64,000 nt of DNA from Octopus vulgaris (GCA_951406725.2 OX597834.1:19530001-19594000); one strand, 5' to 3'; positions 7,158 through 53,128 are shown, numbered from the stretch's first letter. Program-made: numbers and translations. Notes: a model not told the origin generated them from the sequence alone.

Positions 7158-7440
7158 ATTGTTATATTTCAGGATAGTCATTTTCTTTTATTTTCCTGCC
7201 AAATAAACACACTATATATATATTTTTCCTTCACTCATTTATTACTGTTATTATTTTATCCTATGTCCATTGTCCGGAAACTTTTCATCACTCATCTGTG
7301 ACCTCTACAGTGGCCCTTTCCATCCACGTATGTCCTCCTGCTCCACTTAATCCATTCTCTGAGAAGTGAAGGACAAATATATTGTGCGTATGTTTATTTG
7401 GCAAAAGAAAAGGAAAAATGTCCACTCTGAAATATAACAA
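7158..7440. mobile_element. Short element beside (TA)n with ~80-bp imperfect inverted arms and a degenerate hammerhead-like motif (Penelope-like remnant?)
   Basis: TTGTTATATTTCAG...TGCCAAATAAACA at 7158-7209 is inverted at 7390-7440. Minus strand 7272-7316 reads CTGTAGA-G-gtcac(agatga)gtgat-GAAA-AG-TT. Confidence 0.5.
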
Positions 7441-7507
7441 TGTTTGTTTCAACACACGGTTTCACATTAGGAATCTTACAACACAAATTCATAAACGTAT
7501 CTATACT

Positions 7508-7541
<34 letters not shown>

Positions 7542-7624
7542 TCTCTGTGTGTCAATCTGTTTTTAAGTTTTTTCAATACCTCTCTAAACAGCCTCTCACT
7601 CTGTTTCTTTATGTCTCTCTCTCT

Positions 7625-7667
7625 TTCTATCTATCTATCTATCTATCTATCACTTTATGTATGTATG

Positions 7668-7711
<44 letters not shown>

Positions 7712-7731
7712 ACTTTATGTATCTATGTATC

Positions 7732-7762
<31 letters not shown>

Positions 7763-7791
7763 CACTTTATGTATCTATGTATCTATCTATT

Positions 7792-7822
<31 letters not shown>

Positions 7823-7873
7823 CTATCACTTTATGTATCTATGTATCTATCTATTTATCTATCTATCTATCTC

Positions 7874-7952
<79 letters not shown>
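7625..7952. repeat. (TATC)n microsatellite with periodic ACTTTATGTATCTATG interruptions
   Basis: Direct reading. Confidence 0.9.
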
Positions 7953-8827
7953 CCATTCTATCTGTCTTATCTGTGTAGTAATTGTTGATTAGCTAACCTC
8001 ATAATTTATTTAAATCATTTTGACCTAAGCAAAAATGACATAACCAAACAAAAGCCAGCAATCTCTCTCCCTCCCTCCCTCTTTCCCTCTCCTTCCTTTC
8101 CTCCCCCTCTCCCTTTTCCCTTCCCTTCCTTTCCTGGCCGTAATCAGAAACGAGAGCTGTTATGTCAGATTTACTCACTACTTTATTTCTGTTTTATTTT
8201 GAAGAAACACAGTAAAAATTACTGTAATGCTTTATAGCCTTAATAGAGACTAGCTGTCATTGAAGTTTTAGAATATTCAAATTATTTATTTTGTTACAAA
8301 GATTTAATCTGACATTTTAACTGGTTTTACGAAAGGAACAAAAAAAAAAATTGCAGAGATGAAGATCCAATCAGAAATTAACAACAAACAACAACTACAA
8401 CAACAACAACAACAACAAAATACCTAAAACGCATTAATAAACAAACAAGCAAAAATAAATACGAATGAATTGATGAATAATCAAATAAATAAATCATTAA
8501 TAAATAGATAAATAATGAGGAGAAATGATGCTTTATAACACTGCTATTTGTATTGGAAATGTTCTCTATAGTTCATTTGTAGTTTTATGGTGTTGCCTTT
8601 TGATAATGTTTCTTCACAGAATCAACTTAAAAGAATGAATTTCTGTTTCTCTGGAGTTTCTTCTAAAAGACAGATTTGTTACTAAGTATTTGTAAGTACT
8701 CACACAAGATAAAGATTCCTGGCTGCCGTCAAGAATATCACTTTGAAGTTACATCGGTCTGTGTTCAATATCACACTGTAGTATCTTGGCTGACTGTCTT
8801 CTACCAGGGGTTTCAGTTTTCCTTTAA

Positions 8828-8956
8828 TATCCAGCTGTAGAAACACTGCCAGATCTAACTGGCCTGGTGCAGCCTTCGGGCTCCCCAGACCCCAGTTGAA
8901 CCGTCCAACCCATGCTAGCATGGAAAGCGGACGTTAAATGATGATGATGATGATGA
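8828..8956 (+). mobile_element. Family C retroposon 3' end (RTE-type tail, (GAT)n)
   Basis: ATCCAGCTGTAGAAAC...CCGTCCAACCCATGCTAGCATGGAAAGCGGACGTTAAATGATGATG; same family as 46080-46258. Confidence 0.75.
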
Positions 8957-8970
8957 TCTTGTGAGTGAAA

Positions 8971-9370
8971 GGCGGCGAGCTGGCAGAAACGTTAGTGCGC
9001 CAGGCGAAATGCCTAGCGGTATATCGTCTGCCGTTATGTTCTGAGTTCAAATTCAGCCGAGGTCAACTTTGCCTTTCATCCTTTCGGGGTCGATAAATTA
9101 AGTACCAGTTACGTACTGGGGTCAATATAATCGACTTAATCCGTTTGTCTGTCCTTGTTTGCCTTCTCTGTGTTTAGTCCCTTGTGGGTAGTAAAGAAAT
9201 AGGTATTTCATCTGTCTCTACATTCTGAGTTCAAATTCTGCCAAGGTCAACTTTCTTTTTATCCTTTTGGGGGTTGATAAATTAAGTACCAGATGTGTAC
9301 TGAGGTCAATCTAACTGACTGGCCCCCCTTCCCCAAAATTTCAAGCCTTGTGCTTAAAGTAGAAAAGAAT
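8971..9370 (+). mobile_element. Dimeric SINE family B element with a 15-bp target-site duplication
   Basis: Full monomer 8971-9201 is followed by a 5'-truncated monomer 9202-9370. ATCTTGTGAGTGAAA flanks both ends (8956-8970 and 9371-9385). Confidence 0.85.
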
Positions 9371-9454
9371 ATCTTGTGAGTGAAATTTAGTTACTGGAAA
9401 ATGTGCAAGAAACCATTGTATGTATATATAAATGTGTATTTACAATTCTTTCAT

Positions 9455-9665
9455 TCTTCTATTTGCTTCAGTCATTTGACAATGGCCATGCTGGCACATC
9501 ACTTTGAAGGGTTTTAGCTGAACAAATCGACCCCAGCACTTACATATATTATTTTTAAAGCCAAGTACTTATTCTTACAGTCTCTTTTGCTGAACTCCTA
9601 AGTTACAGGGATGTAAACACACCAACACCAGTTGTTGAGCAGTGACAGAGGGGCAAACACAGATG
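9455..9665 (-). mobile_element. SINE family A, 3' half
   Basis: TTCAGTCATTTGAC..TGGCCATGCTGG...CTAAGTTACAGGGATGTAAACACACCAACACC. Confidence 0.75.
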
Positions 9666-9796
9666 CACATGTATATATATATATATATATCACTGTGATC
9701 ACTGTGACCGACCAGGCTATCAGATGTTGCTACACATCACTGGTCACAATGTGCTTCGCATTGTTTTAGCCTTCAAATGACGCCATGATAGATCAT

Positions 9797-9972
9797 TAGC
9801 TCCTACATGCATTTTTTTCTCTCCTTGTTTTTTTTCTGTGTATCTTTCTGTCAAAGAGCATAGGCTCGAAACGTAAAAGACTTTTTCTATTCCTGAGCGC
9901 TATACTAATACATTTGTTTGTTTGTACTCCACCTGCCTTCGTCTTTTGCTTCTTTTCGTAAACTTTCCCTTT
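9797..9972 (+). mobile_element. (TA)n-associated short element, family H2, with hammerhead motif
   Basis: Homologous to 35906-36050 (minus) and 29978-30048 (3' end only); abuts (TA)n. Confidence 0.75.
9843..9880 (+). ncRNA. Minimal type I hammerhead ribozyme-like motif (degenerate copy)
   Basis: tcttt-CTGTCAA-A-gagc(atag)gctc-GAAA-CG-TA-aaaga. Stems I and II pair and stem III is the palindrome ACGT, but core positions 6 and 8 are non-canonical. Confidence 0.55.
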
Positions 9973-11107
9973 ATATATATATATATATATCACTGTAAGT
10001 TCTACTTAATGCTACTACTCTAAGGTAGACATCACTCAATAAAGAGTTTGTAGAGTAAGCATTTGTTGTGAGAACTAGAAAGTTCAATACCTCACAGTGA
10101 CTAGGGATCAATATGGTTTCCTCCTTGGTATCAAGAAGGATGTAAACATTGGTGATAAAAGTGATAAATCGGTGCTTTCATACAGAAATCCCATTTGGTA
10201 TTTGTTCTACCAAAGTTGCACAGGTTCACTCTTCTTGCCCTTGCCACTGCAAATGCAGTTCCTGTAATTGATTGAAGGGAATTATAGTAGCAGCAAGATT
10301 GATGATACACAGCAATAATCTTCTAATGTTTTGATGTGGGTTTTTATTTTTGGCTATTCTTAGTGCTGTAATTTTAGTTGCTAATTATTGTAGATGAATT
10401 ATTCTCTGATAACGAAACGAAATTAAATTCGGTCTTTGCAGAATTTATTTGTGTCATTGAGAATTCTTTGAGCAGGCTTCAAGAAGGTTGGTATTCCTCA
10501 ATCGTTAAGGTGTTAAAAGTTGATTAACTTGATACGAATTCATTTGTCCAGCTGAGAAATTATCACATTAACTGTGAAACTTTAGATGTTTGGAAACATT
10601 GTCAATTATTGCTTTAAGGGTTATTTAGAAAACAGAGAGCATGAGAGTCAAGAAAATTCCAAGACATGAACCGGCAGGAAATAATTACAGGCACGTGACT
10701 GCTCTGACACCAATACCTTAAATCTTATGTTGGTTGTATTGAAAATCAAAAGAAGATTTTCTCACAGACATACACAATTACAAACATATGTACGTACATA
10801 GACATATGTACGTACATAGACATATATACGCCTACATAAATATACATCTCTGTTGAAGAATTTAATGTTTGGTTATTCAATTAGGGTCAGAAATAGTTTT
10901 AAGGAAGCTTCGAAGGTGAAATAGTGAGATTGATTATGAAAAGAAATCGAACCTCATGTCTGAAATGATAAATAAATGGATCGACATTTAACTGCATAAC
11001 AGAACTGGGTGAGGTTACCAATAAAAGTAAAATACTATTTTAGAGCTTCTCTAAGAAAATAATTGTAATTAATTAATTGTTAATTACTCTGTAGCATTTT
11101 CCATTTT

Positions 11108-11406
11108 ACCACCACCATCACCATCACCACCACCACCACCATCACCACCACCACCACCACCATCACCCACAACCACCACCATCACCCACAACCACCACCA
11201 CCACCACCATCACCACCACCACCCACCACCACCACCATCACCCACAACCACCACCCACCACCACCACCATCACCCACAACCACCACCATCACCCACAACC
11301 ACCACCATCACCCACAACCACCACCATCACCCACCACCACCACCACCACACCACCACCACCACCACCCACTACCACCACTACCATCACCACCACCACCAC
11401 CACCAT
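11108..11406. repeat. (CAC/ACC)n low-complexity tract with a CACCATCACCCACAAC sub-repeat
   Basis: Direct reading. Confidence 0.9.
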
Positions 11407-11603
11407 AATTATCATTTTAGCATCCCCATTTTCATTCTTCCATGAATCAGGTGGAATTTGTTGAGGCAGATTTTCTCAGACTGGATGCTCTTCCCGTCAC
11501 CAACGCTCATTGGCTTCCAAGTAAAGTAACACTTCCCCATAGCTGGACATACTTTCATGGAGGATTAGAAATGAATATAACCATTTGTATGATGGCGATA
11601 AAT

Positions 11604-11695
11604 GCATGGCTGAGTGAGAGACTAAGGTAAAGAGCCTGGCTGAGTGAGAGACTAAGGTAAAGAGCCTGGCTGAGTGAGAGATTAAGTCAGAGAGA
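11604..11695. repeat. 30-bp tandem repeat x3 (GCCTGGCTGAGTGAGAGACTAAGGTAAAGA)
   Basis: Direct reading. Confidence 0.85.
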
Positions 11696-11789
11696 GCAGT
11701 GGTGAGAAAGTTTGTAGGGAAGATGCGTTGAATTTCATGTTATCAAATTCCTGTAAAGTAATGGGCTGGTTGAATCATCAACAAATTGG

Positions 11790-11970
11790 ACAAAATGCTT
11801 AGTGATATTTCTTCCATCTTTACATCCTTCGTTCAAATTCTGCCAAGGCTGACTTTACCCTTCATCCTTCCAACGTCGATAAAATAGGTACCAGCTGAAT
11901 ACTGAGGTTGATGCAATCGATTCAACCCCTCCCCAGAAGTTGCAAGCCTTGTGCCAAAATTTGAAACTGC
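11790..11970 (+). mobile_element. SINE family B, degenerate
   Basis: AAATGCTTAG...GTTCAAATTCTGCCAAGGCTGACTTTACCCTTCATCC...GCCTTGTGCCAAAATTTGAAAC. Confidence 0.65.
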
Positions 11971-13479: not shown

Positions 13480-13510
<31 letters not shown>

Positions 13511-13687
13511 GAGTTTCACGTTCCTATTCGTCGGGCAGTTTTTGCTGTCCGACGAACGGGAACGTGAATCTCAGAGTAACAGGTTTTGTTGAATTTTCTG
13601 CTGCTTTAAATAAAGCATATTACTCTACCATTGGTATTTGAGTACTCTTTTTTCCACCTTGTTTCACATTTATGTGTTTACTCCGCT
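13511..13687 (+). mobile_element. (TA)n-inserted short element, family H1, with hammerhead motif and an inverted partial copy
   Basis: Flanked by (TA)n on both sides. Homologous to 50999-51160. 13511-13538 is an inverted copy of 13545-13572. Confidence 0.8.
13545..13582 (+). ncRNA. Minimal type I hammerhead ribozyme-like motif
   Basis: ctgt-CCGACGA-acg(ggaa)cgt-GAAT-ctc(a)gag-TA-acag. The inverted partial copy upstream retains GAAA (reverse complement ...AACGTGAAACTC). Confidence 0.65.
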
Positions 13688-14027: not shown

Positions 14028-14414
14028 GGAGTGGCTGTGTGGTAAGTAGCTTGCTTACCAACCACATGGTCATGGGTTCAGTCCCACTGTGTGGCACTTT
14101 GGGCAAGTGTCTTCTACTATAGCCTCGGGCCAACCAAAGCCTTGCGAGTGGATTTGGTAGATGGAAACTGAAAGAAGCCTGTCGTATATGTATATATATG
14201 TGTGTGTGTATATGTTTGTGTGTCCGTGTTTGTCCCCCCAACATCACTTGACAGCTGATGCTGGTGTGTTTACGTCCCCATAACTTAGTGGTTCGGCAAA
14301 AGAGACTGATAGAATAAGTACTATGCTTACACAGAATAAGCTCTGGGATCGATTTGCTCGACTAAAGGTGGTGCTCCAGCGTGGCCACAGCCAAATGGCT
14401 GAAACAAGTAAAAG
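14028..14414 (+). mobile_element. tRNA-derived SINE family A, full length
   Basis: GGAGTGGCTGTGTGGTAAG (A box), GGGTTCAGTCCC (B box), CORE-like TTGGGCAAGTGTCTT, internal (TA)/(TG) microsatellite, tail GAAACAAGTAAAAGA. Confidence 0.9.
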
Positions 14415-19005: not shown

Positions 19006-19016
19006 GTATTAATAAT

Positions 19017-19386
19017 AACAAGAGCACTCGGAGATCTCAAACTTCTGCCAAGGCAATACCAACGTTTTCTCAATGATTAGCTGGAAAAGATTTTTAAAAT
19101 GAGAATATCTGAAATAAAATCGACTGCTCTCACAAAGAAGAATACGAAAAATGAATCCAACCTCTCTCAAAAATTCAGTAGAAAAAACGGGAAAAATAAT
19201 CCAGAATCCTTGTCCAGTACTGAATCGATCCTCAAATCTAATCAGTTTGTGCGAGTCATAAGGCCAAGCATCTCTGAAAGTTTCATCCAAATCCATCCAG
19301 CGATTCTTGAGATATTTTGTCCATGGTCAAACAAACAAATAAATACAACTGAAAATGATACCTCCGCCTTCGCTAAGGCGGAGGCA
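19017..19386 (-). mobile_element. HINE/Helentron-like element, copy 2
   Basis: AACAAGAGCACTC...ACCTCCGCCTTCGCTAAGGCGGAGG hairpin; flanked by (TAA)n. Confidence 0.75.
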
Positions 19387-19412
19387 ATAATAATATAATA
19401 AAAGTAATAATC

Positions 19413-19540
19413 AGTTGCAGCGTGGAAGGTGTTTATAAGCCATTTAAGAAACACACCAAAACCGTTAGATTCACTTCAACATTTAAATTTAATTTGTCAA
19501 AATATTTTCGTCGCTTTGAGACTGCGACCTGTTCACTGCA
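19413..19540 (-). mobile_element. Short element, family H3, with G3-C8 hammerhead variant (stem I truncated)
   Basis: Homologous to 28104-28250. Minus strand: ca-GTGAACA-G-gtcgc(agtctcaaa)gcgac-GAAAATATTT-tg. Confidence 0.7.
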
Positions 19541-19978
19541 AGTCACTTGCTATGCAAGTATATCTCCGTAAAAACTAATAATAATGACTAGAAATTGCAA
19601 ATTACTTGACTAAATATCACTCAGTATTTAGTTATGTCTCTTTAAGGACAGCAGAATGGCAGAGTTTGCTAGACTGTAGGGCAAAAAATGTCTTGTGATA
19701 TTTCTCCAAACTCTTTCATGTTCTATATTCAAATCATAGCAAGATCAATTTTTGCCTGTTATTCCTCTGAGTTCAATAAAACAAAGTACCAGTCATATGC
19801 AAGGGCTTGATGTATCTTTTAACCCCAACACTTCTTGAATTGCCAGCATTTTCCCTAAATTACAAGCAGTCGTTGTCTCTCTTGTCATTGCTGTATGATT
19901 AATCATTATTAAACCAGGTTATTTTGCATTCAGCTTTCATCTATCATTCGTTTATTGCTCGTATATGAGGTGACCTAC

Positions 19979-27780: not shown

Positions 27781-28103
27781 TTATGTGACATCACATGAAC
27801 CAGCTTCATTGTGCTTTAGGGATAAGCATGAAAGAACAGGAGACTAAAAGAGCAAAGTAACCATTAAATAAACCAGCAGAAAAGCAATGAGGATCCACTG
27901 CTGTTTCTTTTGCAAGAAAAAAATCTATAAGTCTTCAGACTTTAGCAAGGAAGCAATGCTGTCTTACCGAATAGGCACATTAGGGAAGTTCCTCAGGGGC
28001 TCCACAGATGCTGTGGCTTACTGTTTAGAAATAAATATATATTACGGAGATGTACTTGCATAGCAAGTGATTTGATCTGAGAGCGTGTGTTGAAACGAAA
28101 ACA

Positions 28104-28250
28104 ATTGCAGTATGGAAGGTGTTTGTAAGCCATTTAAGAAACTCACATAAGCCGTTTGATTCACTTCAACATTTAAGTTTAATTTGTCAAAATATTTTCG
28201 TTGCTTTAAGACCACGACCTGTTCACTGACAAAAATCCATGCTGCATCAA
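28104..28250 (-). mobile_element. Short element, family H3, nested in a degenerate MITE (~27955-28323)
   Basis: Homolog of 19413-19540. Short inverted ends TGCAGTATGGA / TCCATGCTGCA. Confidence 0.7.
28183..28233 (-). ncRNA. Type I hammerhead ribozyme-like motif with compensatory G3-C8 core
   Basis: tttgtca-GTGAACA-G-gtcgt(ggtcttaaa)gcaac-GAA-AATATT-T-tgacaaa: 7-bp stem I and palindromic stem III. Confidence 0.65.
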
Positions 28251-28415
28251 TAAATAAATAAATATTATAGGGCCCAGTTCTTTGATTCATCTGAGGGCAT
28301 ATGCTACTGCAAGGACAGCCCTGTATGGGAGATTTTTATCTGCTTCTGCCTGTACACACGACATATGAAAAAAAAAAATGAATCTGGATGTATGTGTGTG
28401 TGTGTGTGTGTGATT

Positions 28416-28619
28416 ACTCTTTTACTTATTTCAGTCATTTGACTGTGGCCATTGCTGGAGCACCGCCTTTAGTCGAGCAAATCGACCCCGGGACTTATTC
28501 TTTGTAAGCCCAGTACTTATTTTAACGGTCTATTTTGCCGAACCGCTAAGTGACGGGGGACATAAACACACCAGCATCGATTGTCAAGCAATGCTAGCGG
28601 GACAAACACAGGCACACAA

Positions 28620-28654
<35 letters not shown>

Positions 28655-28827
28655 CATATATACGACAGGCTTCTTTCAGTTTCCGTCTACCAAATCCACT
28701 CACAAGGCATAGGTCGGCCCGGGGCTATAGCAGAAGACACTTGCCCAAGATGCCACGCAGTGGGACTGAACCCGGAACCATGTGGTTGGTTAACAAGCTA
28801 CTTACCACACAGCCACTCCTGCGCCTA
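28416..28827 (-). mobile_element. SINE family A, full length, well preserved
   Basis: Near-consensus reverse complement with CpGs retained. Confidence 0.9.
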
Positions 28828-29253
28828 TTGGTTGGTGCTTTTTAGTGCTTCTTCTTATTTAGATACAAACTGAACTATCTATTTCTATCATCATAGTTTT
28901 ATTATATGCTGTCTCAGTGCAGTTCTTCAACTTCCAAATTATTCCATATTCCTCATAGTCAAAACATTCTGTTTATCTTTAACCCTCCTTCTATGGAGGA
29001 ATGATGTTGGCTACTTGTTTTTTTTTTTGGTGTTTTTTTTTTGTTGATCTTATTGTTTTTCTTCTTTTGTCTTTATGACTCACTTAAAATTTCATTCATC
29101 TTGAAGGAGAACGGTTTGTCATGAGATGAGAACTGGACAAAGATGTATTCTGTTTGATGTCTAATCTCTCTTTCTCTCCCTCATCCTTGCCACATATATA
29201 GATACATACATACATGTATGTATATAAGCACACACATATATATAAATATGTAT

Positions 29254-29798: not shown

Positions 29799-30573
29799 GT
29801 AACTTGAAGAATATTGGAGCCACAGAAAGATGCACCTGATCCTGCTTGTAACATTTGTAAGAGCCAGGGCTCCATTTCATGCTGTCTATATAATTCACTG
29901 GTGATAATATATGCATACATGTATACATACATATTATATACGTGTATATATATATATATATATATATACTATACATATATACTAATACAATTGTTTGTTT
30001 GTTTTCCACCTGCCTTCGCCTTTTGTCTATTTTCATAAAGCTTCCCGTTATATATATATATATACACACACATACTCACACACACACACATATATATATA
30101 AAAATATACATGTATATAGCTATAGTAGTTGTGTTTTTTTTTTTTCATTTTTATTTACCCTCATTCACTCCTTACAATCTAATTTACTAGAATGCAATAG
30201 CATAAAGCACCTGCCGCATTTCATATCAATAATGGTTAGAGAGGAATGCAACTAAAGTGACTATGTTGATTTTTTTAATTTGAATTGTAGGTGTTACATT
30301 GTGACTCTGTGATCTTAGAATAATGGTTGAGAATCATTAAGGCGGCATTCATTGGTTGACAATGTGAAACCTCCAGGGATAATCTTCAGATATTAATAAA
30401 GGATAGACATAAAGCTGCATTTCTAAGTCATGAAGTGGTTTGCAGACCAACAAGGATATCTGATAGGATTGTAAGATTTCAGATTCAGATAGGGATTATT
30501 GGAGAATGGGTGGGTGGGTGGGGGGGGGGACACTGGAAAGGTAGTTTTAGAAACTATTCCTACCATTCTTTTA

Positions 30574-33628: not shown

Positions 33629-33634
<6 letters not shown>

Positions 33635-33888
33635 CGTAGGATAAGATTTTTTTCGGGAAAAAAATTTTATCAATGGCCAGCATATCAAAAAATACCTTTA
33701 AAGGTTAAATTTATAAATAATTTACAAAATAAGGGCAAAAGAAAAATTCTAATGCCAAATATGCTGAAAAAATGACAAAATTGTCAATAACTATTATAAT
33801 TTATGCGTCGAGATGCGTTATTGACAATTTTGTCGTTTTTTCGGCATATTTGGCATTAGAATTTTTCTTTTACCTTTATTTTGTAAAT

Positions 33889-35134: not shown

Positions 35135-35538
35135 TACTCTTTTACTCTTTTACTTGTTTCAGTCATTTGACTGCGGCCATGCTGGAGCACCGCCTTTAGT
35201 CGAGCAAATCGACCCCGGAACTTATTCTTTGTAAGCCCAGTACTTATTCTATTGGTCTCTTTTTGCCGAACCGCTAAGTGACGGGGACGTAAACACACCA
35301 GCATCGGTTGTCAAGTGATGGTGGGGTGACAAACACAGATTCACAAACATATACACACACATACATATATATATACATATATACGACAGGCTTCTTTCAG
35401 TTTCCATCTACCAAATCCACTCACAAGGCATTGGTCGGCCCGAGGCTATAGCAGAAGACACTTGCCCAAGATGCCACACAGTGGGACTGAACCCGGAACC
35501 ATGTGGTTGGTAAGCAAGCTACTTACCACACAGCCACT
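35135..35538 (-). mobile_element. SINE family A, full length
   Basis: Near-consensus reverse complement. Confidence 0.9.
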
Positions 35539-35868: not shown

Positions 35869-35909
<41 letters not shown>

Positions 35910-35996
35910 AGAGTTTACGAAAAAAACAAAAGACGAAGACAGGTGGTGTACAAAATAAACAGATGTATTAGTATAACGCTCAGGAATAGAAAAAGT

Positions 35997-36032
35997 CTTT
36001 TACGTTTCGAGCCTACGCTCTTCTACAGAAAG
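35997..36032 (-). ncRNA. Minimal type I hammerhead-like motif in family H2 element (35906-36050)
   Basis: cttt-CTGTAGA-A-gagc(gtag)gctc-GAAA-CG-TA-aaag; A6 is replaced by U. Confidence 0.6.
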
Positions 36033-36586
36033 GGACACAGAAAAAACGTGGATTGTAAGAGTACACTTAATGATATGTAATCCCCCTGTAACACTACGAA
36101 CTATCTGCCATCATGGTTGTGATCTTTAAACTGGTTTGCCCTTGTATTGTTAGTATATTACACATGATACAAGTCTGTGTAAGGGGCTTTTCTGACACTT
36201 TTCCAGGGAAGTATCAGCCTACTCTAATTACTGATAAGTAATTAGACAATTGCTGGGTTCATCTATCATTTTGACAGAGCTAGTGTTGGTTATGTTGGGT
36301 TTCTGTCAACCTTCCTCACAAGGCTAGTGTGGAGGTAGTGGTGGTGGGTCCACTTTAGTTGTTGACGACCTGATCCAGAGCTGGATTAAGACCTATAGAG
36401 GCTCTTAGCACTTAAAAGATTTTGGTGCCCCAATATATATGTAATTCCAAACATAAACAATAATAAACCAAAAAATATATTATTTTCAAATTCAAAACAA
36501 AACTCACAGAAAGAGGGGAAATAATGTTTATTTTTCTATACTTCCGTTTTATATATATTTGAAAAGTTTTCTCCTATTTCGTTTAA

Positions 36587-36820
36587 TACTCTTTTACTCG
36601 TTTACTCTTTTACGTATTTCAGTCATTTGACTGCGGCCATGCTGGAGCACCGCCTTTAATCGAGCAACTCGACCCCGGGACTTATTCTTTTGTAAGCCCA
36701 GTACTTATTCTATCGGTCACTTTTGCCGAACCGCTAAGTAACGGGGACATAAACACACCAGCATCGGTTGTCAAGCAATGCTAGGGGGACAAACACAGAC
36801 ACACAAACACACACATGCAC

Positions 36821-36858
<38 letters not shown>

Positions 36859-37012
36859 GACGGGCTTCTTTCAGTTTCCATCGACTAAATCCACTCACAA
36901 GGCTTTGGTCTGCCCGAGGCTATAGTAGAAGACACTTGCCCAAGGTGCCACACAGTGGGACTGAACCCAGAACCATGTGGTTGGTAAACAAGCTACTTAC
37001 CACACAGCCACA
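36587..37012 (-). mobile_element. SINE family A, full length
   Basis: Near-consensus reverse complement. Confidence 0.9.
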
Positions 37013-37107
37013 CCTTCTTTGTTCAAATCCTGTATATTAATCTTACATAACACATCTGCTTCTATACTTAGTAGAGACAAGGCATTCCGAATATCATTTT
37101 AGCAAGT

Positions 37108-37590: not shown

Positions 37591-37607
37591 AGAGATTTCT
37601 TTTGTGC

Positions 37608-38323
37608 CATTAACCTGCTGGAGAGGACCGATCAGGTAAAGGACCTAGGTATCTTGGTGGATTCCTCCTTTTCGCCTTCGGCCCAGTGCGTCCATGCTAC
37701 CAACAAAGCACGCGGAATTCTGTTCTTGATTCGACGGTCATTCGGAATGCTCACAGCAGCCATATTCCTACCACTCTATGTCACGCTGGTGAGACCCATA
37801 TTGGAGTATGGGATTCAAGCCTCTTCTCCTTATCTCCTCAAAGACATACAGCATCTCGAAAGAGTCCAGAAGCTGGCTACCCGCATGGTTCATGGTCTCA
37901 AAAATTTGTCCTACGAAGAAAGGCTGAGGACGCTCGACCTTTATTCTCTTGAAAAACGCCGCCGCCGTGGTGATCTCATTCTCGCCCACAACATCATAAG
38001 CGGAAAGTGTAACCTCTCGAAAGAGCTGTTCTTCACTCCTGCTCCAGAGCGTCGGCTGCGGGATCATTCTGAAAAGCTCTACCTGCGACAATTTCATCTC
38101 AATCGAAGGAGAGGAGCTTTCTCCGTCCGGGTTGCGGATCCGTGGAACAAGCTGCCAGACGAGATGGTGAAGATGCCGACGACCGCTTTGTTCAAAGCCT
38201 CCCTTGACCTCAAGTGGCCTGAACTCTTTACATGAACACCACCCTGTACTTAACTCCATGTCCCCCTACATGGCCTTGCTATTTGCTTTTGAGCCAAATT
38301 AACTAACTAACTAACTAACTAAC
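37608..38323 (+). mobile_element. CR1-clade LINE, 5'-truncated: ORF2 C-terminus, 3' UTR and (TAAC)n tail
   Basis: KDLGILVD...LYVTLVRPILEY...LERVQKLATRMV.GLKNLSYEERL..LDLYSLEKRR.RGDLI...FSVRV..PWN.LP, uninterrupted to the stop at 38235. AACT repeats at 38301-38323. No RT active site is present. Confidence 0.92.
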
Positions 38324-38423
38324 CATTTACCATTTCTATGGCATTCCCATTTCCCTTGCTTAATTGTTAATCCAATGCTCACCTGATTGTGTAACAAGCT
38401 GTAGTCAATCATATGTTATCAGT

Positions 38424-38587
38424 AGGCACAGGAGTGGCTGTGTGGTAAGTAGCTTGCTTACCAACCACATGGTTCCGGGTTCAGTCCCACTGTGTGGCAT
38501 CTTGGGCAAGTGTCTTCTGCTATAGCCTTGGGCCGCCCAATGCCTTGTGAGTGGATTTGGTAGATGGAAACTGAAAGAAGCCTGTCG

Positions 38588-38620
<33 letters not shown>

Positions 38621-38819
38621 ATATGTTTGTGTTTGTTCCCCTAGCATTGCTTGACAACTGATGCTGGTGTGTTTATGTTCTCGTCACTTAGCGGTTTGGT
38701 GAAAGAGAGCAATAGAATAAGTACTGGGCTTACAAAGAATAAATCCCGGGGTCGATTTGCTCGACTAAAAGCGGTGCTCCAGCATGGCCGCAGTCAAATG
38801 GCTGAAACAAGTAAAGGAG
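38424..38819 (+). mobile_element. SINE family A, full length
   Basis: Consensus head and tail. Confidence 0.9.
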
Positions 38820-38867
38820 TCCAATGCCAATAGATGCATGTAACTGTAATTAAAAGGGCCAGTGTTT

Positions 38868-44561: not shown

Positions 44562-44744
44562 GCTGATATACCCTCCAGCCTTCATCAGGTGTCTTGGGGG
44601 AAATTTCAAAATTGAGTTCTCATTCCTAAGGTATTTTTCGATGTTGTTATTATTTTTATTATTCAGGTCACTGCCTGAAATCGAACTTGGAATCTTGGAG
44701 TTAGTAGCCCACACTCTTAACCACTACTCCATATACCTGTGGGC
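44562..44744 (-). mobile_element. tRNA-like Pol III head followed by the 5' half of a hammerhead motif, truncated at a microsatellite
   Basis: Minus strand TGGAGTAGTGG (A box), AGTTCGATTTC (B-box-like), then acac-CTGATGA-A-ggctg(gagggtatat)cagc, cut off just before the expected C-GAAA. Confidence 0.55.
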
Positions 44745-45803
44745 ATCTCTTAAATATAAAATTGTACACACTCAGAAGGTCACCAACTCCTCACCAGTTA
44801 TTGGCTAAAGGGTCAAACACAATTTCATGCTGGACTTGAACTCCTGATGGATTCATAGAGGTACTGTTGTAACTTGTGTTGTACCTGGGATATTTTAAAC
44901 TTCCAGGCCTGAATGTATCTGATTTCTTCCAAAGGGAAAAAGAAAGAAGAACCAATTCTATATCTTAGACATGTCACTTCATTTATCACCCCAGAAGGAA
45001 TGAAGGGCAAATTTGATCTAGAGAGGATTTGAACTCAGTGTCGAGACCCATAAGGAATACTGCCAAGTAATCAGTCTTTGTAATGCCTATGTCAAATCAC
45101 CTGTATATTTGTTTGTGTATATGTGTGTGTGTGTGTGTGTGAGTGTATATGTTGGTTTTATTTGGAGGTTGGTGTAGACATAGAAACTGTATATGTTGTG
45201 GTGAGGGTAGCCATACATTTTAAACTGAATAGTGACTGCTCTGACTCTGGTTTGAGTTGAAATAAACAACTCAACTAAGATGACTTTCATAAGATTTTAT
45301 TTTATGTTGAGAACCATTTTAAAAAACATTAAGAAAATTTATTTATTTCAGTTTCTCTATTATTCAGCTTTCTAGTCGAGATAAAAACTACTGAATAATT
45401 TCCTTTGATGTGACAATGCTAATTCCATCCAAACAATATGCTGGGTTTTCTTCAGTACAATTGCTAACTGCTGTGGCTACAACAATGCAAACCGATTCTT
45501 TCTGAAATGTAAACAGTGGCTCCAAGTTGAATTACTTTCCTTTTATGCTTTGCAATATGGAATACATGTAAGACTTGCATCAACACTATCGGCCTGCAGA
45601 AAGCTGGAGAGAGGAAAAGCAGAAGAGCAATTTGTTGTCTGGCGAAGAGTCTTGCTGGTTACCAAGAATTTTCTCTTCTGCCTTTTCTCCATTGTTTGAA
45701 AATGTTTCAGTGAATTCACCTGATTTCTAAAGCATAAGCATTCAATTAAAATTTTGCTTTGATATTTTTTTTTATACATCGCTATTTCATTCCAATCAAA
45801 CAG

Positions 45804-46595: not shown

Positions 46596-46609
46596 ATATA
46601 TACATATAA

Positions 46610-47262
46610 GGCGCAGGAGTCGCTGTGTGGTAAGTAGCTTGCTTACCAACCACATGGTTCCGGGTTCAGTCCCACTGCGTGGCATCTTGGGCAAGTGTCT
46701 TCTGCTATAGCCCCGGGCCGACCAATGCCTTGTGAGTGGGTTTGGTAGACGGAAACTGAAAGAAGCCTGTCGTATATATGTATGTATATATAAATATATG
46801 TGTGTGTGTGTGTGTGTGTTTGTGTGTGTGTGTTTGTCCCCCTAGCATTGCTTGACAACCAGTGCTGGTGTGTTTACGTCTCTGTCACTTAGCGGTTCGG
46901 CAAAAGAGACCGATAGAATAAGTACTGGGCTTACAAAAGAATAAGTCCCGGGGGTCGATTCGATCGACTAAAGGCGGTGCTCCAGCATAGCCACAGTCAC
47001 ATGACTGAAACAAGTAAAAGAGTAATATATATATATATGCGTGTGTGTGTTTGTGTGTCTGTGTTTGTCCCCTTAGCATTGCTTGACAACTGATGCTGGT
47101 GTGTTTATGTCCCCGTTACTTAGCGGTTCGGCAAAAGAGACTGATAGAATAAGTACTGGGCTTACAAAAGAATAAGTCCCGGGGGTCGAGTTGCTCGATT
47201 AAAGGCGGTGCTCCAGCATGGTCACAGTCAAATGTCTGAAACAAGTAAAAGAGTAAAAGAGT
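46610..47262 (+). mobile_element. SINE family A full copy (46610-47023) plus a tandem 3' half (47038-47262)
   Basis: Both tails share the variant AATAAGTCCCGGGGGTCGA. Confidence 0.9.
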
Positions 47263-48426: not shown

Positions 48427-48468
<42 letters not shown>

Positions 48469-48870
48469 CCACTACCTTCATAAACATCGATAGGAGAACG
48501 CAAAAGGTGGTGGTGGTGGGAGCACTGTAAATATTCACCCTCTGATATGGAAGTGAATATTGTCATTAAACAGCTTTTAACTTTGGTGTTCTACTAGTTA
48601 GAGTCTCTGAAGTTTATTTTTACTGTGGAGGACAAAAAAAAAAAGAAGAAAAAAACACAACAAACAAACAACAAAAAAATAACGATGGCATAATGGCTTT
48701 CATTGCATTATCCAGAATTAAATGGTTGACTGTCACAGAATAAATAAGTTGTCTTGATGAAATAAATGAAATAAAAATAAGTTGTTTCTTTTTTTTTTTT
48801 AAATCTGAACCATTTTTTGAGGGAGAGAAAGAGAGAGAGAGAGAAAGAGAGGGAGAGAGAGAGAGAAAGA

Positions 48871-48936
<66 letters not shown>

Positions 48937-49195
48937 GCATTTGGCTGACCATTATTTTCTGCTGCAGGTTCTGATGAATGAAATTAAAGTCATAAGGTGC
49001 ATCAGTAATCAGTGGACAGGTAGCAGATAAGGAAGGATGTCAAGAGTGCATGTGCTTGTGTGTGTGTGTGTATTTATATATGTATAGGTGTGTGTATTTA
49101 TATATGTGTATGTGTGTGTATTTATATATGTGTATGTGTGTATGTATATATGTGTGTGTGTGTATACATATACACACACATGCATGCACACACAA

Positions 49196-49240
<45 letters not shown>

Positions 49241-49370
49241 TACACATGAGTATATACATATCTGTGTCTACGCACACATACATAAATATATATATGCATG
49301 TATGTGTGTGGGTATATATATACATGTGTGTATATATACATATGTATATATATATATAGATATATAGAAT

Positions 49371-49421
<51 letters not shown>

Positions 49422-49422
49422 A

Positions 49423-49553
49423 TATATATTGTCAAAAGGTGAGAGCTAGAGATGCTCACTATATGTATACATATATATATATATACACATACATATATAT
49501 ATTGTCAAAAGGTGAGAGCTAGAGATGCTCACTATATGTATACATATATATAC
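49423..49553. repeat. ~72-bp tandem duplication bounded by (TA)n
   Basis: TATTGTCAAAAGGTGAGAGCTAGAGATGCTCACTATATGTATAC occurs twice. Confidence 0.9.
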
Positions 49554-50028
49554 ATATAACATATACTTATACATACATGTACTTGTATAAATGCATATAT
49601 GTACACGTATTCACAAACACATGTATATGTATTTACACACATTCATATACAGAGAGTGAGTGAAGGAAAAAATTGGAGAGGGAACAAGAGGTGTGTGTGT
49701 GTATGCATGTGTGCACATAAGACCAAGCATAAAATATCTTGCAATTTTAGGCTTGCGACACCAAGAACCTCTTTTGTAATGCTTGTACATCTATCATTTT
49801 GTATCCATTTATCACAACCATTGGCATTCTACGATGCTTTTGTTATGGATGGTGTTTAATCCTGTACAGCTTGCCAGTCAACTCTTCCGTATATTTATCA
49901 ACAGTTTCTCGGTGGCTTGTCTCTTTGCTCAAATCATAGCTACACACACACACACAATAAAAAAAGAATGCTAAAAAAAACAGCATATAAAATTAAAAAA
50001 TTGTCACAAATAACTTTACTTATACATA

Positions 50029-50417
50029 GGCACAGGAGTAGCTTGCTTACCAACCACATGGTTCCGGGTTCAGTCCCACTGCATGGCACCTTGGGCAAGT
50101 GTCTTCTACTATAGCTTCAGGCCAACCAAAGCCTTGTGAGTGGATTTGGTAGATGGAAACTGAAAGAAGCCCGTCGTATATATGTATATACATATGTATG
50201 TGTGTTTGTGTGTCTGTGTTTGTCCCCCTGGCATTGCTTGACAACCAATGCTGGTGTGTTTATGTCCCCGTCACTTAGCGGTTCGGCGAAAGAGACCGAT
50301 AGAATAAGTACTGGGCTTACAAAAGAATAAGTCCTGGGGTCGATTTGCTCGACTAAAACGGTGGTGCTCCAGCATGACCGCAGTCAAATGACTGAAACAA
50401 GTAAAAGAGTAAAGAGT
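50029..50417 (+). mobile_element. SINE family A with a ~50-bp flanking direct repeat
   Basis: AAACAGCATATAAAATT....AAATTGTCACAAATAACTTTACTTATACATA at 49978-50028 and 50418-50469. Confidence 0.9.
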
Positions 50418-50686
50418 AAACAGCATATAAAATTTTTTAAATTGTCACAAATAACTTTACTTATACATATATATATACTCATATATATGTATGTGTGTAC
50501 ATTTATCTGTGTCAATCTGTGATATCGACACATCAGGTTTATGTCAATATAACTATATTCAGCAAGATTTACAATGCCTTACATATGCTTAAACATCTAA
50601 AAGGATATGTTATGTTGTCTTCTTTCTAATCCTCAGTTGTGCTGAAGAGTGAAATTGTTTGCTTGTTGTTTCCTTTTAAAGCACAG

Positions 50687-50776
50687 CGTGGCCAAGTTTT
50701 TCTCCTTCCAGCAGTAGCTCCAGCCGATCAACTCCCCCATCACCTGCTACTAAATTATCACAATGGCTATCTCCAA
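50687..50776 (+). CDS. Candidate Ser/Pro-rich exon (WPSFSPSSSSSSRSTPPSPATKLSQWLSP), gene unknown
   Basis: Polypyrimidine tract with AG acceptors at 50681 and 50686, an open protein-like frame, and a possible A|GTAATT donor (or read-through to TAA near 50852). Confidence 0.3.
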
Positions 50777-50954
50777 GTAATTTCCTTACTGCTCACCAAT
50801 TCCAACTTTGCAATTTGTCCACTGTTCTTCTTTGTAGAAATGGTTTACTTTAAGGATAGATAAACACTGTTTTGCTTTGTGTTTGTGTTTGGCTTGCAAG
50901 ATTCTTTATGTGAATCCATGTGTTGAGGCAAATCTTGTTGTGTCTGTTTGTATG

Positions 50955-50998
<44 letters not shown>

Positions 50999-50999
<1 letters not shown>

Positions 51000-51158
51000 T
51001 ATTTAAAAGCAGCAAAAACTGTCCGACAAACGGGAACGTGTAACTCTGAGTAACAGGTTTTGTTGAATTTCTGCTGCTTTTAAATAAAGCATATTACTCT
51101 ACCCCTGGTATTTGAGTACTCTTTTTCCACCTTGTTTCACATTTATGTGTTTACTCCA

Positions 51159-51160
<2 letters not shown>
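50999..51160 (+). mobile_element. Family H1 element, copy 2, with degenerate hammerhead at 51019-51056
   Basis: ctgt-CCGACAA-acg(ggaa)cgt-GTAA-ctc(t)gag-TA-acag; (TA)n on both sides; IR TTATTTAAAAGCAGCA/TGCTGCTTTTAAATAA. Confidence 0.75.
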
Positions 51161-51201
<41 letters not shown>

Positions 51202-51202
<1 letters not shown>

Positions 51203-51437
51203 TAAGCAATTAAGGGTTTAGCAACGATTTGCCTCACCACACACCGAGTTTAGAAATAGCAGTCAAAGAGTGATAGCTATTCTTTCTACTAAAAGGAGAT
51301 CTCAGTAAAACCACAGCACTTAGAAGGCAGACGCAGGCAAGAGAGGAAGAAATGACGACAATCATACAATATTAAGTCACCTACGGACGTACGTTTCGAA
51401 ATTAAGTTTTAGGAAAGCATAAGAATTAGATAATTAG

Positions 51438-51438
<1 letters not shown>
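51202..51438 (-). mobile_element. (TA)n-inserted short element with a hammerhead 3'-half signature
   Basis: Minus strand CGAAACGTA-cgtccg at 51384-51398; no upstream CTGANGA retained; related to 43530-43717. Confidence 0.4.
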
Positions 51439-51469
<31 letters not shown>

Positions 51470-51603
51470 GTATATATGTATATAGATATGTGTATATATA
51501 TGTATGTATATATGCATGTATATATTTATGTATATATGTGCATAATATATAAGTATGAATACATGTGTGTGTATATATATATCTATGTATGTACACACAC
51601 ACT

Positions 51604-51659
<56 letters not shown>

Positions 51660-52487
51660 CTATCATCTGGGTAAAAACCTCAGAACACACTTTTCAAAAC
51701 TCCTGTAAGGTTATTGGCAAAGTCAACCTTAATAATAATAACAATAATAATAACAATAATAATAATAATAATAACAACAATAATAATAATAATAATAAGA
51801 AGAAGAGGAAGAAGGAAAAGAAGGAGAATAAAAATAATTATTTTAGTGATTGCTATAATAATGACAGGTGTGGTGACTTTTACCTTTTCTCTGTGTGTTA
51901 TGGAAAGATTAATAAAGAGTAATTACGGACAAAGTGTGCAAATGCTTGCATAAAACTAGATTAAGCTGCATAATTTGATGAATAGCCCTTCCAATATCAC
52001 ATTGCTCAACACAAAATGAGGGTTCCTTTGCATACATTTATCATTTTCATTTTAGCTTTTTGTAACCTGAATTACACCACAATTTTCCTTACTCAATTAT
52101 CCTTACATCAAAACGTCACCATAGTAAGTTACAGAAAGAGGAAGATGATTAGGAAAGGTCATGAAAAGCAACCTATACACAATAAAGGAAACTTACTTTC
52201 AAGTTTTTAGTCTTTATTTGTGGTTCTGCTGTGCATCCTGTGGTAACGTTATATGTAGAGTCAGTGCAAGCAAAGACAGCTCATGTACTGTCTTTGAAAG
52301 TTTGAGGTTGGTTACTGAACTCACGGGACCAGTGCCTTTATAGTGTTACTTATATTGATTTATATTTTTGTGTGTGTGAGGAATTGAATATCTGGAACCA
52401 TGTCAATGAGAAACAGAATTCTTAATGAAACATCAATGCATACGTATATATATATATATATCATCATCATCATCATCATTGTCGTCA

Positions 52488-52830
52488 GTAAATCCAAACT
52501 TACAGGGAAAAATTAGATTTAGGATTAAATCTAATTTTATAGTATAAATATATATATTAATTTAGAGATAATTTATGATTTTCACTGTTTGATTTGCCTA
52601 ATAGTGGTTTTATCTCTAATTTAATATATATACATACATATATATATATAACTAATGTAGGATAAGATTTTTTTCGAAAGAAAAATTTTTATCAATGGCC
52701 AGCATATCAAAAAATACCTTTAATGGTTAAATTTATAAATAACTTATAAAATAAGGGCAAGAGAAAAAATTCTAATGCCAAATATGCCGAAAAAAAGACA
52801 AAATTGTCAATAACCATTATAATTTATGCG

Positions 52831-52867
<37 letters not shown>

Positions 52868-53126
52868 AATTTAATGTAGGATAAAATTTTTTTTGAAAAA
52901 AAAATTTTTGGAAAGGCCAGCATATTAAAAAATACCTTTAGAGGTTAAAATTATAAACAACTTATAAATAAGGGCAAACGAAAAAATTTCTAATGCCAAA
53001 TATGCCGAAAGTTGGACATATTGTCCATAACCATATAATCATATAACCATATATGGTTATGGACAATATGTCCAACTTTCGGCATATTTGGCATTAGAAA
53101 TTTTTTTGTTTGCCCTTATTATAAGT

Positions 53127-53128
<2 letters not shown>
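52488..53128. mobile_element. Cluster of (TA)n-associated elements: two tandem family P copies plus an inverted partial copy
   Basis: Copies at 52651-52832 and 52866-53036; 52958-53036 is inverted at 53050-53128. Confidence 0.8.

What the first reader, a model, noticed from the sequence alone, without database searches (positions are those of the whole stretch)
7158..53128. Several unrelated short repeat families, mostly at (TA)n tracts, carry minimal type I hammerhead ribozyme folds
Seen: full folds at 9843-9880 (+), 13545-13582 (+), 28183-28233 (-), 35997-36032 (-) and 51019-51056 (+); partial or weaker ones at 7272-7316, 19493-19538, 44562-44592 and 51384-51398 (all -). Each full fold has stem I, a 7-nt core, stem II, GAAA or a single-base variant, a very short or palindromic stem III (ACGT, AATATT, CTCNGAG) and UH. 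Stem sequences differ completely between families, yet the geometry is kept. Most host elements abut (TA)n and many have an inverted partial copy. Established: Penelope-like elements and retrozymes carry minimal type I hammerheads with palindromic stem III that can cleave as dimers, and Penelope insertions show tandem or inverted pseudo-LTRs. Inference: this genome holds a diverse, high-copy set of non-autonomous, ribozyme-bearing, microsatellite-associated retroelements that strict CUGANGA searches would miss.
Basis: partly seen in the sequence, partly recalled or inferred. Interest (0 to 1): 0.85.

Follow-up and report, generated by a model that had tools for sequence, protein, structure and literature searches.

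The report
Penelope transposon hammerheads with altered cores
These short repeats are cut-down tail ends of Penelope-type jumping genes and carry the small hammerhead RNA fold known from such elements, but several very abundant families have fixed unusual letters in its catalytic core, so a cutting test on them would likely show whether these RNAs need to cut at all.

Summary
All nine sites exist; each lies in a copy of a genomic repeat family (A-F). Alone, the window's folds are barely above chance (3 vs 0-2 in shuffles); in 1.05 Mb of sampled genome they are far above it (35 vs 3), and only 6 of 35 have the strict core. Families A, B, C and D are not separate non-autonomous elements: they are 5'-truncated 3' ends (pseudo-LTRs) of RT + GIY-YIG Penelope-like elements, which I found with long or intact ORFs. 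E and F are unlinked. Minimal hammerheads in pseudo-LTRs, inverted copies and (TA)n targets are in print. Not found in the papers I could read: family C has a fixed G3:C8 core (6,459 exact 19-mers vs 0 canonical) while relatives in the same lineage carry C:G and U:A; young intact family A has fixed A6U with position 7 free (15,153 exact 29-mers); a young relative of D has A9C. Cleavage is untested, and the key 2017 paper was unavailable. The scan noted G3:C8 before in other genomes. Verdict: new variant of a known kind.

The parts
9785..9970 (+). Family A pseudo-LTR copy, 5'-truncated, ends at (TA)n; hammerhead fold 9843-9880, core CUGUCAA (family U6 plus private G8A)
   Evidence: parent ORF
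35907..36047 (-). Family A (subfamily A2) pseudo-LTR copy; hammerhead fold 35997-36032, core CUGUAGA, stem III ACGU, identical to the subfamily majority
   Evidence: 100% over 141 nt
29979..30047 (+).
   Evidence: (97% to A1)
13510..13686 (+). Family B pseudo-LTR copy with short inverted 5' piece (13510-13546); hammerhead fold 13545-13582, core CCGACGA, private A15.1U
   Evidence: parent
50997..51159 (+). Family B pseudo-LTR copy; decayed hammerhead fold 51019-51056
28042..28248 (-). Family C pseudo-LTR copy with tail; hammerhead fold 28183-28233, core GUGAACA (G3:C8), 7-bp stem I, stem III AAUAUU
   Evidence: parent
19409..19580 (-). Family C copy without tail, preceded by an inverted tail piece; core, stem II and stem III intact (19493-19538), 5' strand of stem I cut
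7160..7510 (.). Family D head-to-head pair: hammerhead-bearing arm 7160-7358 on the minus strand (fold 7272-7316, decayed; family core CUGAAGA) and tail-bearing arm 7359-7510 on the plus strand
   Evidence: endonuclease link
44562..44760 (-). Family E fragment: tRNA-like A/B-box segment, (AAT)n, then the 5' half of a canonical hammerhead (44562-44592) cut off by a simple repeat
51202..51437 (-). Family F 5'-truncated copy ending at (TA)n; holds only the 3' part of a long-stem-II hammerhead (GAAA, stem III ACGUACGU, 51384-51400)
52650..53128 (-). Family G: two copies with the same layout (tail, inverted arm, (TA)n), no hammerhead in these copies; a third copy at 33630-33888

Best explanation
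The repeats of families A to D are the 3' ends (pseudo-LTRs) of Penelope-like retrotransposons, each with a minimal type I hammerhead fold, and they were likely left at (TA)n tracts when reverse transcription stopped or folded back early. Shown: the same hammerhead lies 350-900 nt behind the stop codon of family A's ORF and in both pseudo-LTRs of intact copies; B, C and D likewise join RT/GIY-YIG ORFs; 3' ends are fixed at one of two sites (with or without a 57-70-nt tail), 5' ends vary. Inferred from published work: the element's endonuclease nicks AT-rich DNA, RT starts inside the RNA at either of two sites, and two hammerheads of a tandem pLTR-ORF-pLTR transcript pair through their palindromic stem III and cut slowly, probably with help from the element's protein. 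The fold has been kept between master lineages (more alike than its flanks; position 3:8 occurs as C:G, U:A and G:C in one lineage), so I take G3:C8 in family C as a likely working compensated core (about 0.6), whereas A6U (family A) and A9C (young D relative) are likely weak cutters (about 0.3 that they cut well). The solo window copies are likely inert.
For: ORF links: A, L179 and 26 of 30 loci from a search with its ORF end; 7 of 10 long-ORF loci have two identical hammerheads 4.45-4.57 kb apart around a 1084-aa ORF with Pfam RVT_1 above cut-off and a weak GIY-YIG hit. B, L231/L232. C, pseudo-LTR reads into an ORF in 5 of 20 fetched candidates, and L354 has a 1025-codon open frame (GIY-YIG above cut-off) followed by the G3:C8 hammerhead; L334+L355 and L335+L356 carry family C pseudo-LTRs on both sides of the ORF. 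D, family match downstream of or inverted around an endonuclease hit in about 20 of 30 loci; intact 1309-aa relative in tandem and inverted copies. Two 3' ends: B at 0 and -66, C at 0 and -57 to -62, as in PMC8557442 and PMC11167929 (passages). Conservation: in 10 of 10 pairs of A-lineage family majorities the hammerhead is more alike (0.76-0.94) than 30 nt upstream (0.50-0.87) and 70 nt downstream (0.59-0.83); same direction in 6 of 6 D-lineage pairs. Position 7 takes all four bases (44 T, 25 A, 20 C, 11 G in the 100 matches listed) while the other 28 positions are fixed by the pattern. The hammerhead lies 92-135 nt before the ORF start in the D lineage with C:G, U:A or G:C at 3:8. C3G/G8C partly rescues a PLE hammerhead in vitro (PMC11167929).
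Against: No cleavage data. A6 and A9 changes are expected to hurt catalysis (A6C gave low activity, PMC3088659 section 8). Predicted monomer and dimer folds of A, H, B and D' majorities are not the three-way junction; in A the new U6 pairs with the stem III strand. E and F could not be tied to an ORF: 0 of 15 and 0 of 3 copies had an upstream hit to nine PLE proteins; for E there is only a short peptide that resembles an endonuclease end (recall). Pfam gave no hit for the D' and B proteins; their assignment rests on motifs and BLAST. 5' ends in B and C cluster just upstream of the hammerhead (B 6 of 11 at -6 to -10; C 12 of 17 at -8 to -24, the reference's own limit being -24), which plain random truncation does not predict.
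Confidence: 0.85

Rival explanations
1. In some lineages (A, D') the hammerhead no longer needs to cut: the fold is kept as a structural or protein-binding element of the pseudo-LTR, and core letters that serve only chemistry drift or are replaced. This concerns function, not identity, and can hold beside the best explanation.
For: The youngest intact families carry uncompensated core changes: A6U in all A1/A2/A3 majorities (15,153 exact 29-mers), A9C in intact D' copies while older relatives have A9, U4C in most B and H copies. Cleavage was not needed for insertion in vitro and no RNA-seq reads ended at the site in PMC11167929; Naiad elements spread without canonical hammerheads (PMC8557442). 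Copy 5' ends do not pile up at the cleavage site.
Against: C3, U4, G5, G8, A9, GAAA, the palindrome and UH stay fixed across A subfamilies whose flanks differ by 13-33%. The 3:8 pair, a contact of the active conformation, stays Watson-Crick through two double changes in the D lineage. U4C and weak cores are known to keep some activity (PMC3088659 passages).
Confidence: 0.4
2. The short copies of C and B are partly a non-autonomous, SINE-like population: solo pseudo-LTRs are transcribed from a start just upstream of the hammerhead and copied again by the parent's protein.
For: None of the 64 family C alignments shown extends more than about 26 nt upstream of the core; loose ends there have no common sequence in four public runs; 6,459 exact core 19-mers against at most some 30 matches to the parent's ORF start.
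Against: Parents carry a long (CATA)n-like tract about 45 nt upstream of the hammerhead, a plausible place for RT to stop or fold back; 14 of 17 sampled C pieces are head-to-head pairs, the usual product of one insertion; A, E and F have scattered 5' ends; solo copies of A end before the ORF start. No tandem arrays of retrozyme type were seen in the loci read.
Confidence: 0.15
3. The folds are chance look-alikes in AT-rich repeats.
For: In the window alone relaxed hits barely exceed shuffles (3 vs 0-2; 10 vs 4-7), and the relaxed scan did return a false hit inside a LINE ORF.
Against: 35 vs 3 hits in 1.05 Mb; the motif sits at the position known for PLE hammerheads in four ORF-linked families; canonical cores in D, E, F and K relatives.
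Confidence: 0.01

Closest known systems
Minimal hammerheads (min-HHR) in the pseudo-LTRs of metazoan Penelope-like elements (Cervera and De la Pena 2014, PMC4209133; read: parts 1-2 of 4 of the text, parts 1-2 of 3 of the supplement)
   Same: Type I, short stem I, extra nucleotide between 9 and 10.1, G10.1-C11.1, palindromic 15.2-16.2, mostly single copies from truncated elements, opposite-strand pairs close by, many unrelated families per genome, a U3-A8 variant.
   Different: The Fig. S3 rows I saw have CUGANGA or UUGANRA cores only and no cephalopod; here whole families have G3:C8, U6, C4 or C9. Tails are 57-70 nt rather than 30-40.
[quoted passage not shown]
   Same: Short stem III, predicted dimer cleavage, association with PLEs.
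   Different: Could not be compared; it may already list some of these core variants.
Neptune-clade PLE (family A parent)
   Same: Single ORF, DKG motif, YIDD, CX4CxxC linker before a C-terminal GIY-YIG, microsatellite targeting (criteria from PMC8557442 passages).
   Different: A6U hammerhead core; clade call rests on motifs, not on a tree with reference elements, and the linker motif is shared with Nematis.
Hydra-clade PLE (family B parent; Craig et al. 2021, PMC8557442)
   Same: RWK and DKT motifs, CxCX5C-type linker (middle C is F in the copies read), CxxC and CxH around the conserved E and N, (TA)n insertion.
   Different: Most copies have U4C, whereas canonical hammerheads are reported as universal in Hydra; stem II opens with A-U and no extra nucleotide.
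PAc, Poseidon element of Anolis (Frangieh et al. 2024, PMC11167929; passages)
   Same: Two RT start sites giving tail and no-tail ends, AT-rich targets, ORF start inside the pseudo-LTR (as in C and D').
   Different: C3G/G8C was an engineered rescue there; here it is the natural state of a family of thousands of copies.
Non-LTR retrozymes and Sm-alpha-type repeats (10.64898/2026.07.22.740005, parts 1-2 of 5 read; PMC7229834, listing only)
   Same: Short, non-coding, type I hammerhead-bearing repeats thought to derive from pseudo-LTRs.
   Different: Those are tandem arrays of units; these are dispersed solos or head-to-head pairs with an ORF-bearing parent.

Membership tests
Penelope-like element (EN+) | Single ORF with RT and C-terminal GIY-YIG endonuclease linked to the repeat | tested here: met
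   A, C, D/D', B (broken copies only). Not met in the copies at hand for E and F.
Penelope-like element (EN+) | Pseudo-LTRs from partial tandems | tested here: met
   7 of 10 long A loci; D' L332; C L334+L355, L335+L356.
Penelope-like element (EN+) | 5' truncation, inverted 5' copy and optional tail | tested here: met
   tails 57-70 nt.
Penelope-like element (EN+) | Clade by RT phylogeny with reference elements | not tested
   No reference set at hand; clades named from motifs only.
Minimal type I hammerhead of PLEs | Core CUGANGA | tested here: not met
   Not met in A (U6), C (G3:C8), most B (C4), D' (C9); met in the family majorities of D, E, F and a B subfamily.
Minimal type I hammerhead of PLEs | Watson-Crick pair at 3:8, GAAA, U16.1 and H17, stems I and II | tested here: met
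   Family majorities of A-F (E from copies); stem I of D is bulged and weak.
Minimal type I hammerhead of PLEs | Palindromic stem III region allowing a dimer | tested here: met
   ACGU (A, E), ACUCNGAGU (B), AAUAUU (C), ACGUACGU (F), AGAUUU with G-U pairs (D) read from the sequence; cofold gave the stem III dimer only for F.
Minimal type I hammerhead of PLEs | Extra nucleotide between 9 and 10.1 and G10.1-C11.1 | tested here: inconclusive
   Both present in A, C, D, E; F has G-C without a clear extra base; B has neither.
Minimal type I hammerhead of PLEs | Self-cleavage 3' of H17 as a dimer | not testable with these tools
   Only assembled contigs were on offer, which cannot show RNA ends.
Non-LTR retrozyme | Head-to-tail arrays of hammerhead-bearing units | tested here: not met
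   No array in the window or in the loci read; not searched genome-wide.
Non-LTR retrozyme | Circular RNA of unit length | not testable with these tools
   No raw RNA reads listed.
Non-autonomous (SINE-like) derivative | Fixed 5' end and own sequence lineage apart from ORF-bearing copies | tested here: inconclusive
   5' ends cluster in B and C, scatter in A, E, F; no copy-level tree built.

The most novel reading that the evidence does not exclude
This genome holds a natural mutagenesis of the hammerhead core: one Penelope lineage has run the 3:8 pair through C:G, U:A and G:C, and the two youngest intact families have spread with A6U or A9C, changes that laboratory rules call crippling. Either the element's protein rescues such cores, or the pseudo-LTR hammerhead has become a non-cutting RNA element that the protein recognises; both would redefine what the Penelope hammerhead is for and mean that strict motif searches miss most of them.
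Probability: 0.3. Interest if true: 0.7.

Novelty: new variant of a known kind. Interest (0 to 1): 0.45.

Why it matters
The role of hammerheads in Penelope-like elements is open: they cut poorly, need protein in one tested case and were dispensable for insertion in vitro (PMC4209133, PMC11167929). Here, intact and recently copied elements with canonical, compensated (G3:C8, U3:A8) and uncompensated (A6U, A9C, U4C) cores sit side by side with their own proteins, which makes the question directly testable. [quoted passage not shown] As a class of element, though, this is known biology.

Tried and rejected
Rfam: window scan flooded by microRNA models on simple repeats, no hammerhead in the 150 rows shown of 392; 401 nt of family E gave 0 matches at E up to 1; ARAGORN found no tRNA in 4 of 4 family E loci, so the tRNA-like segment is a motif resemblance only. 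The repeat finder was swamped by microsatellites. A second apparent G3:C8 family (2 hits) lies inside a LINE RT ORF and was dropped. Public runs: no RNA holder listed; only contigs, which cannot show RNA ends; they showed no other letter at 10% or more in the A or C core in the four runs laid each time, and summed depth 4-6 times higher over the A hammerhead than beside it, which I treat as a hint only. Test for copy 5' ends at the cleavage site: no pile-up. Within-family test of core vs flank: non-CpG core mismatches 10 of 369 vs flank 272 of 4861 over four families; copies are related and partly chosen by similarity, so this is weak. A MAFFT alignment of D-lineage hammerheads failed on wrong coordinates and was replaced by motif anchoring; the tree there groups C with D' only weakly (82/67) and has no root. 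The A6 version of the 29-mer was not counted genome-wide (own-genome searches spent); in the sampled loci 1 canonical-core copy with the same stem II loop was seen (L039). ORF links for E and F not found. Literature: searches 'hammerhead + G3-C8 + natural', 'hammerhead ribozyme + A6U + core', 'C3G, G8C, naturally occurring, retrotransposon', 'octopus + hammerhead ribozyme' and searches returned no report of a natural G3:C8 or A6U family or of cephalopod PLE hammerheads; the library lacks most subscription papers and PMC5785218, and supplements of PMC8557442 and PMC3088659 (Figs S6-S7) were not read and may bear on this. PMC13282606 (passages) reports recently active Penelope families in Octopus vulgaris and has no occurrence of 'ribozyme'.


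Full report
Setting. The window is G000:C21:19530001-19594000 of a 2.8-Gb genome in 227 contigs, 35% G+C and full of microsatellites. From recalled repeat content it is probably an octopus; I did not check this.

Observation. All nine stretches are there as written. A masked self-BLAST pairs 9830-9969 with 35907-36046 (family A), 13545-13684 with 51019-51157 (B) and 19412-19538 with 28102-28228 (C). I wrote a hammerhead scanner (any Watson-Crick pair at 3:8, a set number of other core deviations, stems I and II, near-palindromic stem III, UH). In the window it finds no strict fold, 3 folds with up to 2 deviations (shuffles 0-2, n=10) and 10 with up to 3 (shuffles 4-7, n=5). So the single folds are weak evidence. 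In 105 evenly placed 10-kb stretches (1.05 Mb) it finds 35 folds with up to 1 deviation against 3 in a shuffle: 6 strict, 10 U4C, 8 A6U, 4 U3:A8, 4 G3:C8 (one with AAAA), 1 canonical with AAAA, and 2 false hits in a LINE ORF. An earlier, looser run gave 40 hits in 800 kb, and 18 vs 1 in the 30 stretches that were shuffled.

Families. Genome searches returned 40 scored candidates each for A, B, C and D out of 650, 754, 1545 and 3167. The copies have fixed 3' ends, variable 5' ends, and often an inverted partial copy at the 5' end. In the sample: A2 25 pieces, B 11, C 17, D 1, E 15, F 12, which extrapolates roughly to 3-7 x 10^4 each, except D. 3' ends fall at two places in B (0, -66) and C (0, -57 to -62). 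(TA)n follows the 3' end in about half or more of A2, B, C and F pieces against 6% background, but in 0 of 15 E pieces.

Parents. A: sampled locus L179 has the end of an ORF with a CX4CxxC linker and GIY-YIG, a pyrimidine-rich UTR, the hammerhead and (TA)n. A search with this peptide gave 142 scored matches at 94-100% of 19,886 candidates; 26 of 30 loci have the hammerhead 351-895 nt behind the match. Of 10 loci chosen for long open frames, 7 have two identical hammerheads 4.45-4.57 kb apart around the ORF; the 1084-aa protein hits RVT_1 above and GIY-YIG below the Pfam cut-off. B: walking upstream reached an endonuclease end in 2 of 30 loci and an inverted, broken copy with RT that shows the RWK, DKT, CxCX5C-type, CxxC and CxH motifs given for the Hydra clade (PMC8557442 passages). 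D: two copies share about 1 kb upstream with an endonuclease; a search with it found the D pseudo-LTR in about 20 of 30 loci and a young relative, D', with 1309-aa ORFs in tandem and inverted copies whose ATG lies inside the pseudo-LTR. C: its 3' end reads as a peptide like the D' start; 5 of 20 fetched candidates show the C pseudo-LTR running into an ORF, and L354 has a 1025-codon frame, 54% identical to D' over RT and endonuclease, followed by a simple-repeat-rich UTR and the G3:C8 hammerhead. E and F stayed unlinked; E has only a short peptide upstream that resembles an endonuclease end by recall. So the short repeats of A-D are pseudo-LTRs of coding elements, not separate non-coding families.

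Cores. Window copies mix decay and family state. Family states: D, E, F canonical; B mostly CCGAYGA with a canonical subfamily; A CUGUNGA; C GUGAACA; D' CUGAUGC. Exact counts: the C 19-mer with G3:C8 occurs 6,459 times, the same 19-mer with C3, G7 and G8 of the canonical D core 0 times. The A 29-mer with U6 and position 7 open occurs 15,153 times; the 100 listed have 44 T, 25 A, 20 C and 11 G at position 7. In the lineage of D, D', C and a sister J the hammerhead lies 92-135 nt before the ORF start in 7 of the 8 copies where it was found (the eighth has a deletion; 11 of 19 had none in range) and shows C:G, U:A or G:C at 3:8, with stem II kept. Between family majorities the hammerhead is more alike than its flanks in 10 of 10 A-lineage pairs and 6 of 6 D-lineage pairs. 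These pairs share ancestry and are not independent tests.

How it likely works. Shown: position, linkage, end structure, conservation. From papers: the endonuclease prefers AT-rich DNA, RT starts inside the RNA at two sites that give the tail, the hammerhead of one element cuts only with protein, C3G/G8C partly rescues it, and cutting was not needed for insertion in vitro (PMC11167929 passages); minimal hammerheads cut weakly as dimers (PMC4209133). Inferred: the window copies are abortive insertions at (TA)n; in tandem parents two hammerheads can pair by the stem III palindrome. The double swaps at 3:8 argue that the active geometry has been under selection in the D lineage. Against a uniform catalytic role: A6U and A9C are uncompensated and sit in the youngest intact families; A6C is a poor cutter (PMC3088659 section 8); folding of the A majority pairs U6 with the stem III strand; copy 5' ends do not mark the cleavage site. 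The clustering of 5' ends just upstream of the hammerhead in B and C is unexplained; a simple-repeat tract upstream in C's parent is one possible cause, secondary copying of solo pseudo-LTRs another.

Comparison. The kind is known: PMC4209133 describes thousands of such motifs per genome, their extra nucleotide, palindrome, opposite-strand pairs and a U3-A8 variant; the rows of its Fig. S3 that I read show no G3:C8, U6 or C9 core and no cephalopod. PMC3088659 reports U3:A8 and a single A6C in nature. G3-C8 appears as a laboratory variant in PMC3884650, PMC8495972 and PMC11167929 (passages). Ten searches found no natural G3:C8 or A6U family, but PMC5785218, the closest paper, was not held. Reviews PMC6765202, PMC6155905 and PMC6466107 and papers PMC10886601, PMC12602865 and PMC13282606 were seen as passages only. 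This scan's earlier notes list G3:C8 cores behind Penelope-like RTs in other genomes, with an inserted base and unproven, and in phages, and a U3:A8 case; I did not test them.

Verdict. Real, and a known kind of element in a host where I found no earlier report. Interest 0.45.

Noticed in passing
window 44670-44745 (-); L211, L238, L122: Family E carries a tRNA-like segment (A-box and B-box look-alikes, by recall) and an (AAT)n run between a putative endonuclease end and the hammerhead; a possible Pol III promoter inside a pseudo-LTR. ARAGORN and Rfam found nothing.
   Followed up: partly
L331-L333 (G000:C1:212440500-212449499, C1:59392000-59401999, C2:95767500-95774499): Very young PLE (D'): 14 N-terminal matches at 100%, many with 1310-1312-codon frames, tandem and inverted copies, hammerhead core CUGAUGC (A9C) where older relatives have A9.
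   Followed up: partly
L130 560-1070, L158 3480-3140, L035: Another Neptune-like family with a U3:A8 hammerhead (stem III ACCGGU) in its 3' UTR, ending at (TA)n.
   Followed up: partly
L046, L198, L164; L147, L058; L033; L163, L286; L141: At least five more hammerhead-bearing families in the sample, one U3:A8 and four canonical, several in head-to-head pairs; the one in L163 follows a Hydra-like endonuclease.
   Followed up: no
L152, L160, L167, L185, L186 and others: Family H, a relative of A with U4C core (13 of 21 copies C4, 8 U4, possibly CpG decay).
   Followed up: partly
window 52650-53128 and 33630-33888: Family G copies with tail, inverted arm and (TA)n ends but truncated before any hammerhead; the 53000-53087 hairpin hit in Rfam is this inversion.
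   Followed up: partly
window 14028-14409, 28413-28830, 35155-35538, 36615-37015, 38420-38820, 46602-47243, 50037-50399 and others: A dozen or more copies of a two-part SINE-like repeat with internal simple sequence; recalled as an octopus SINE.
   Followed up: no
window 3014-3851 and 4741-5271: Tandem arrays of 99 bp (7-8 units) and 23 bp (23 units).
   Followed up: no
window 37591-38232 (+): 214-codon open frame resembling the C-terminal part of a LINE reverse transcriptase (by recall).
   Followed up: no
window 86-590, 19012-19383, 61310-61615: Three copies of another interspersed repeat; the first is interrupted by a 143-bp piece whose inverted copy lies at 946-1088.
   Followed up: no
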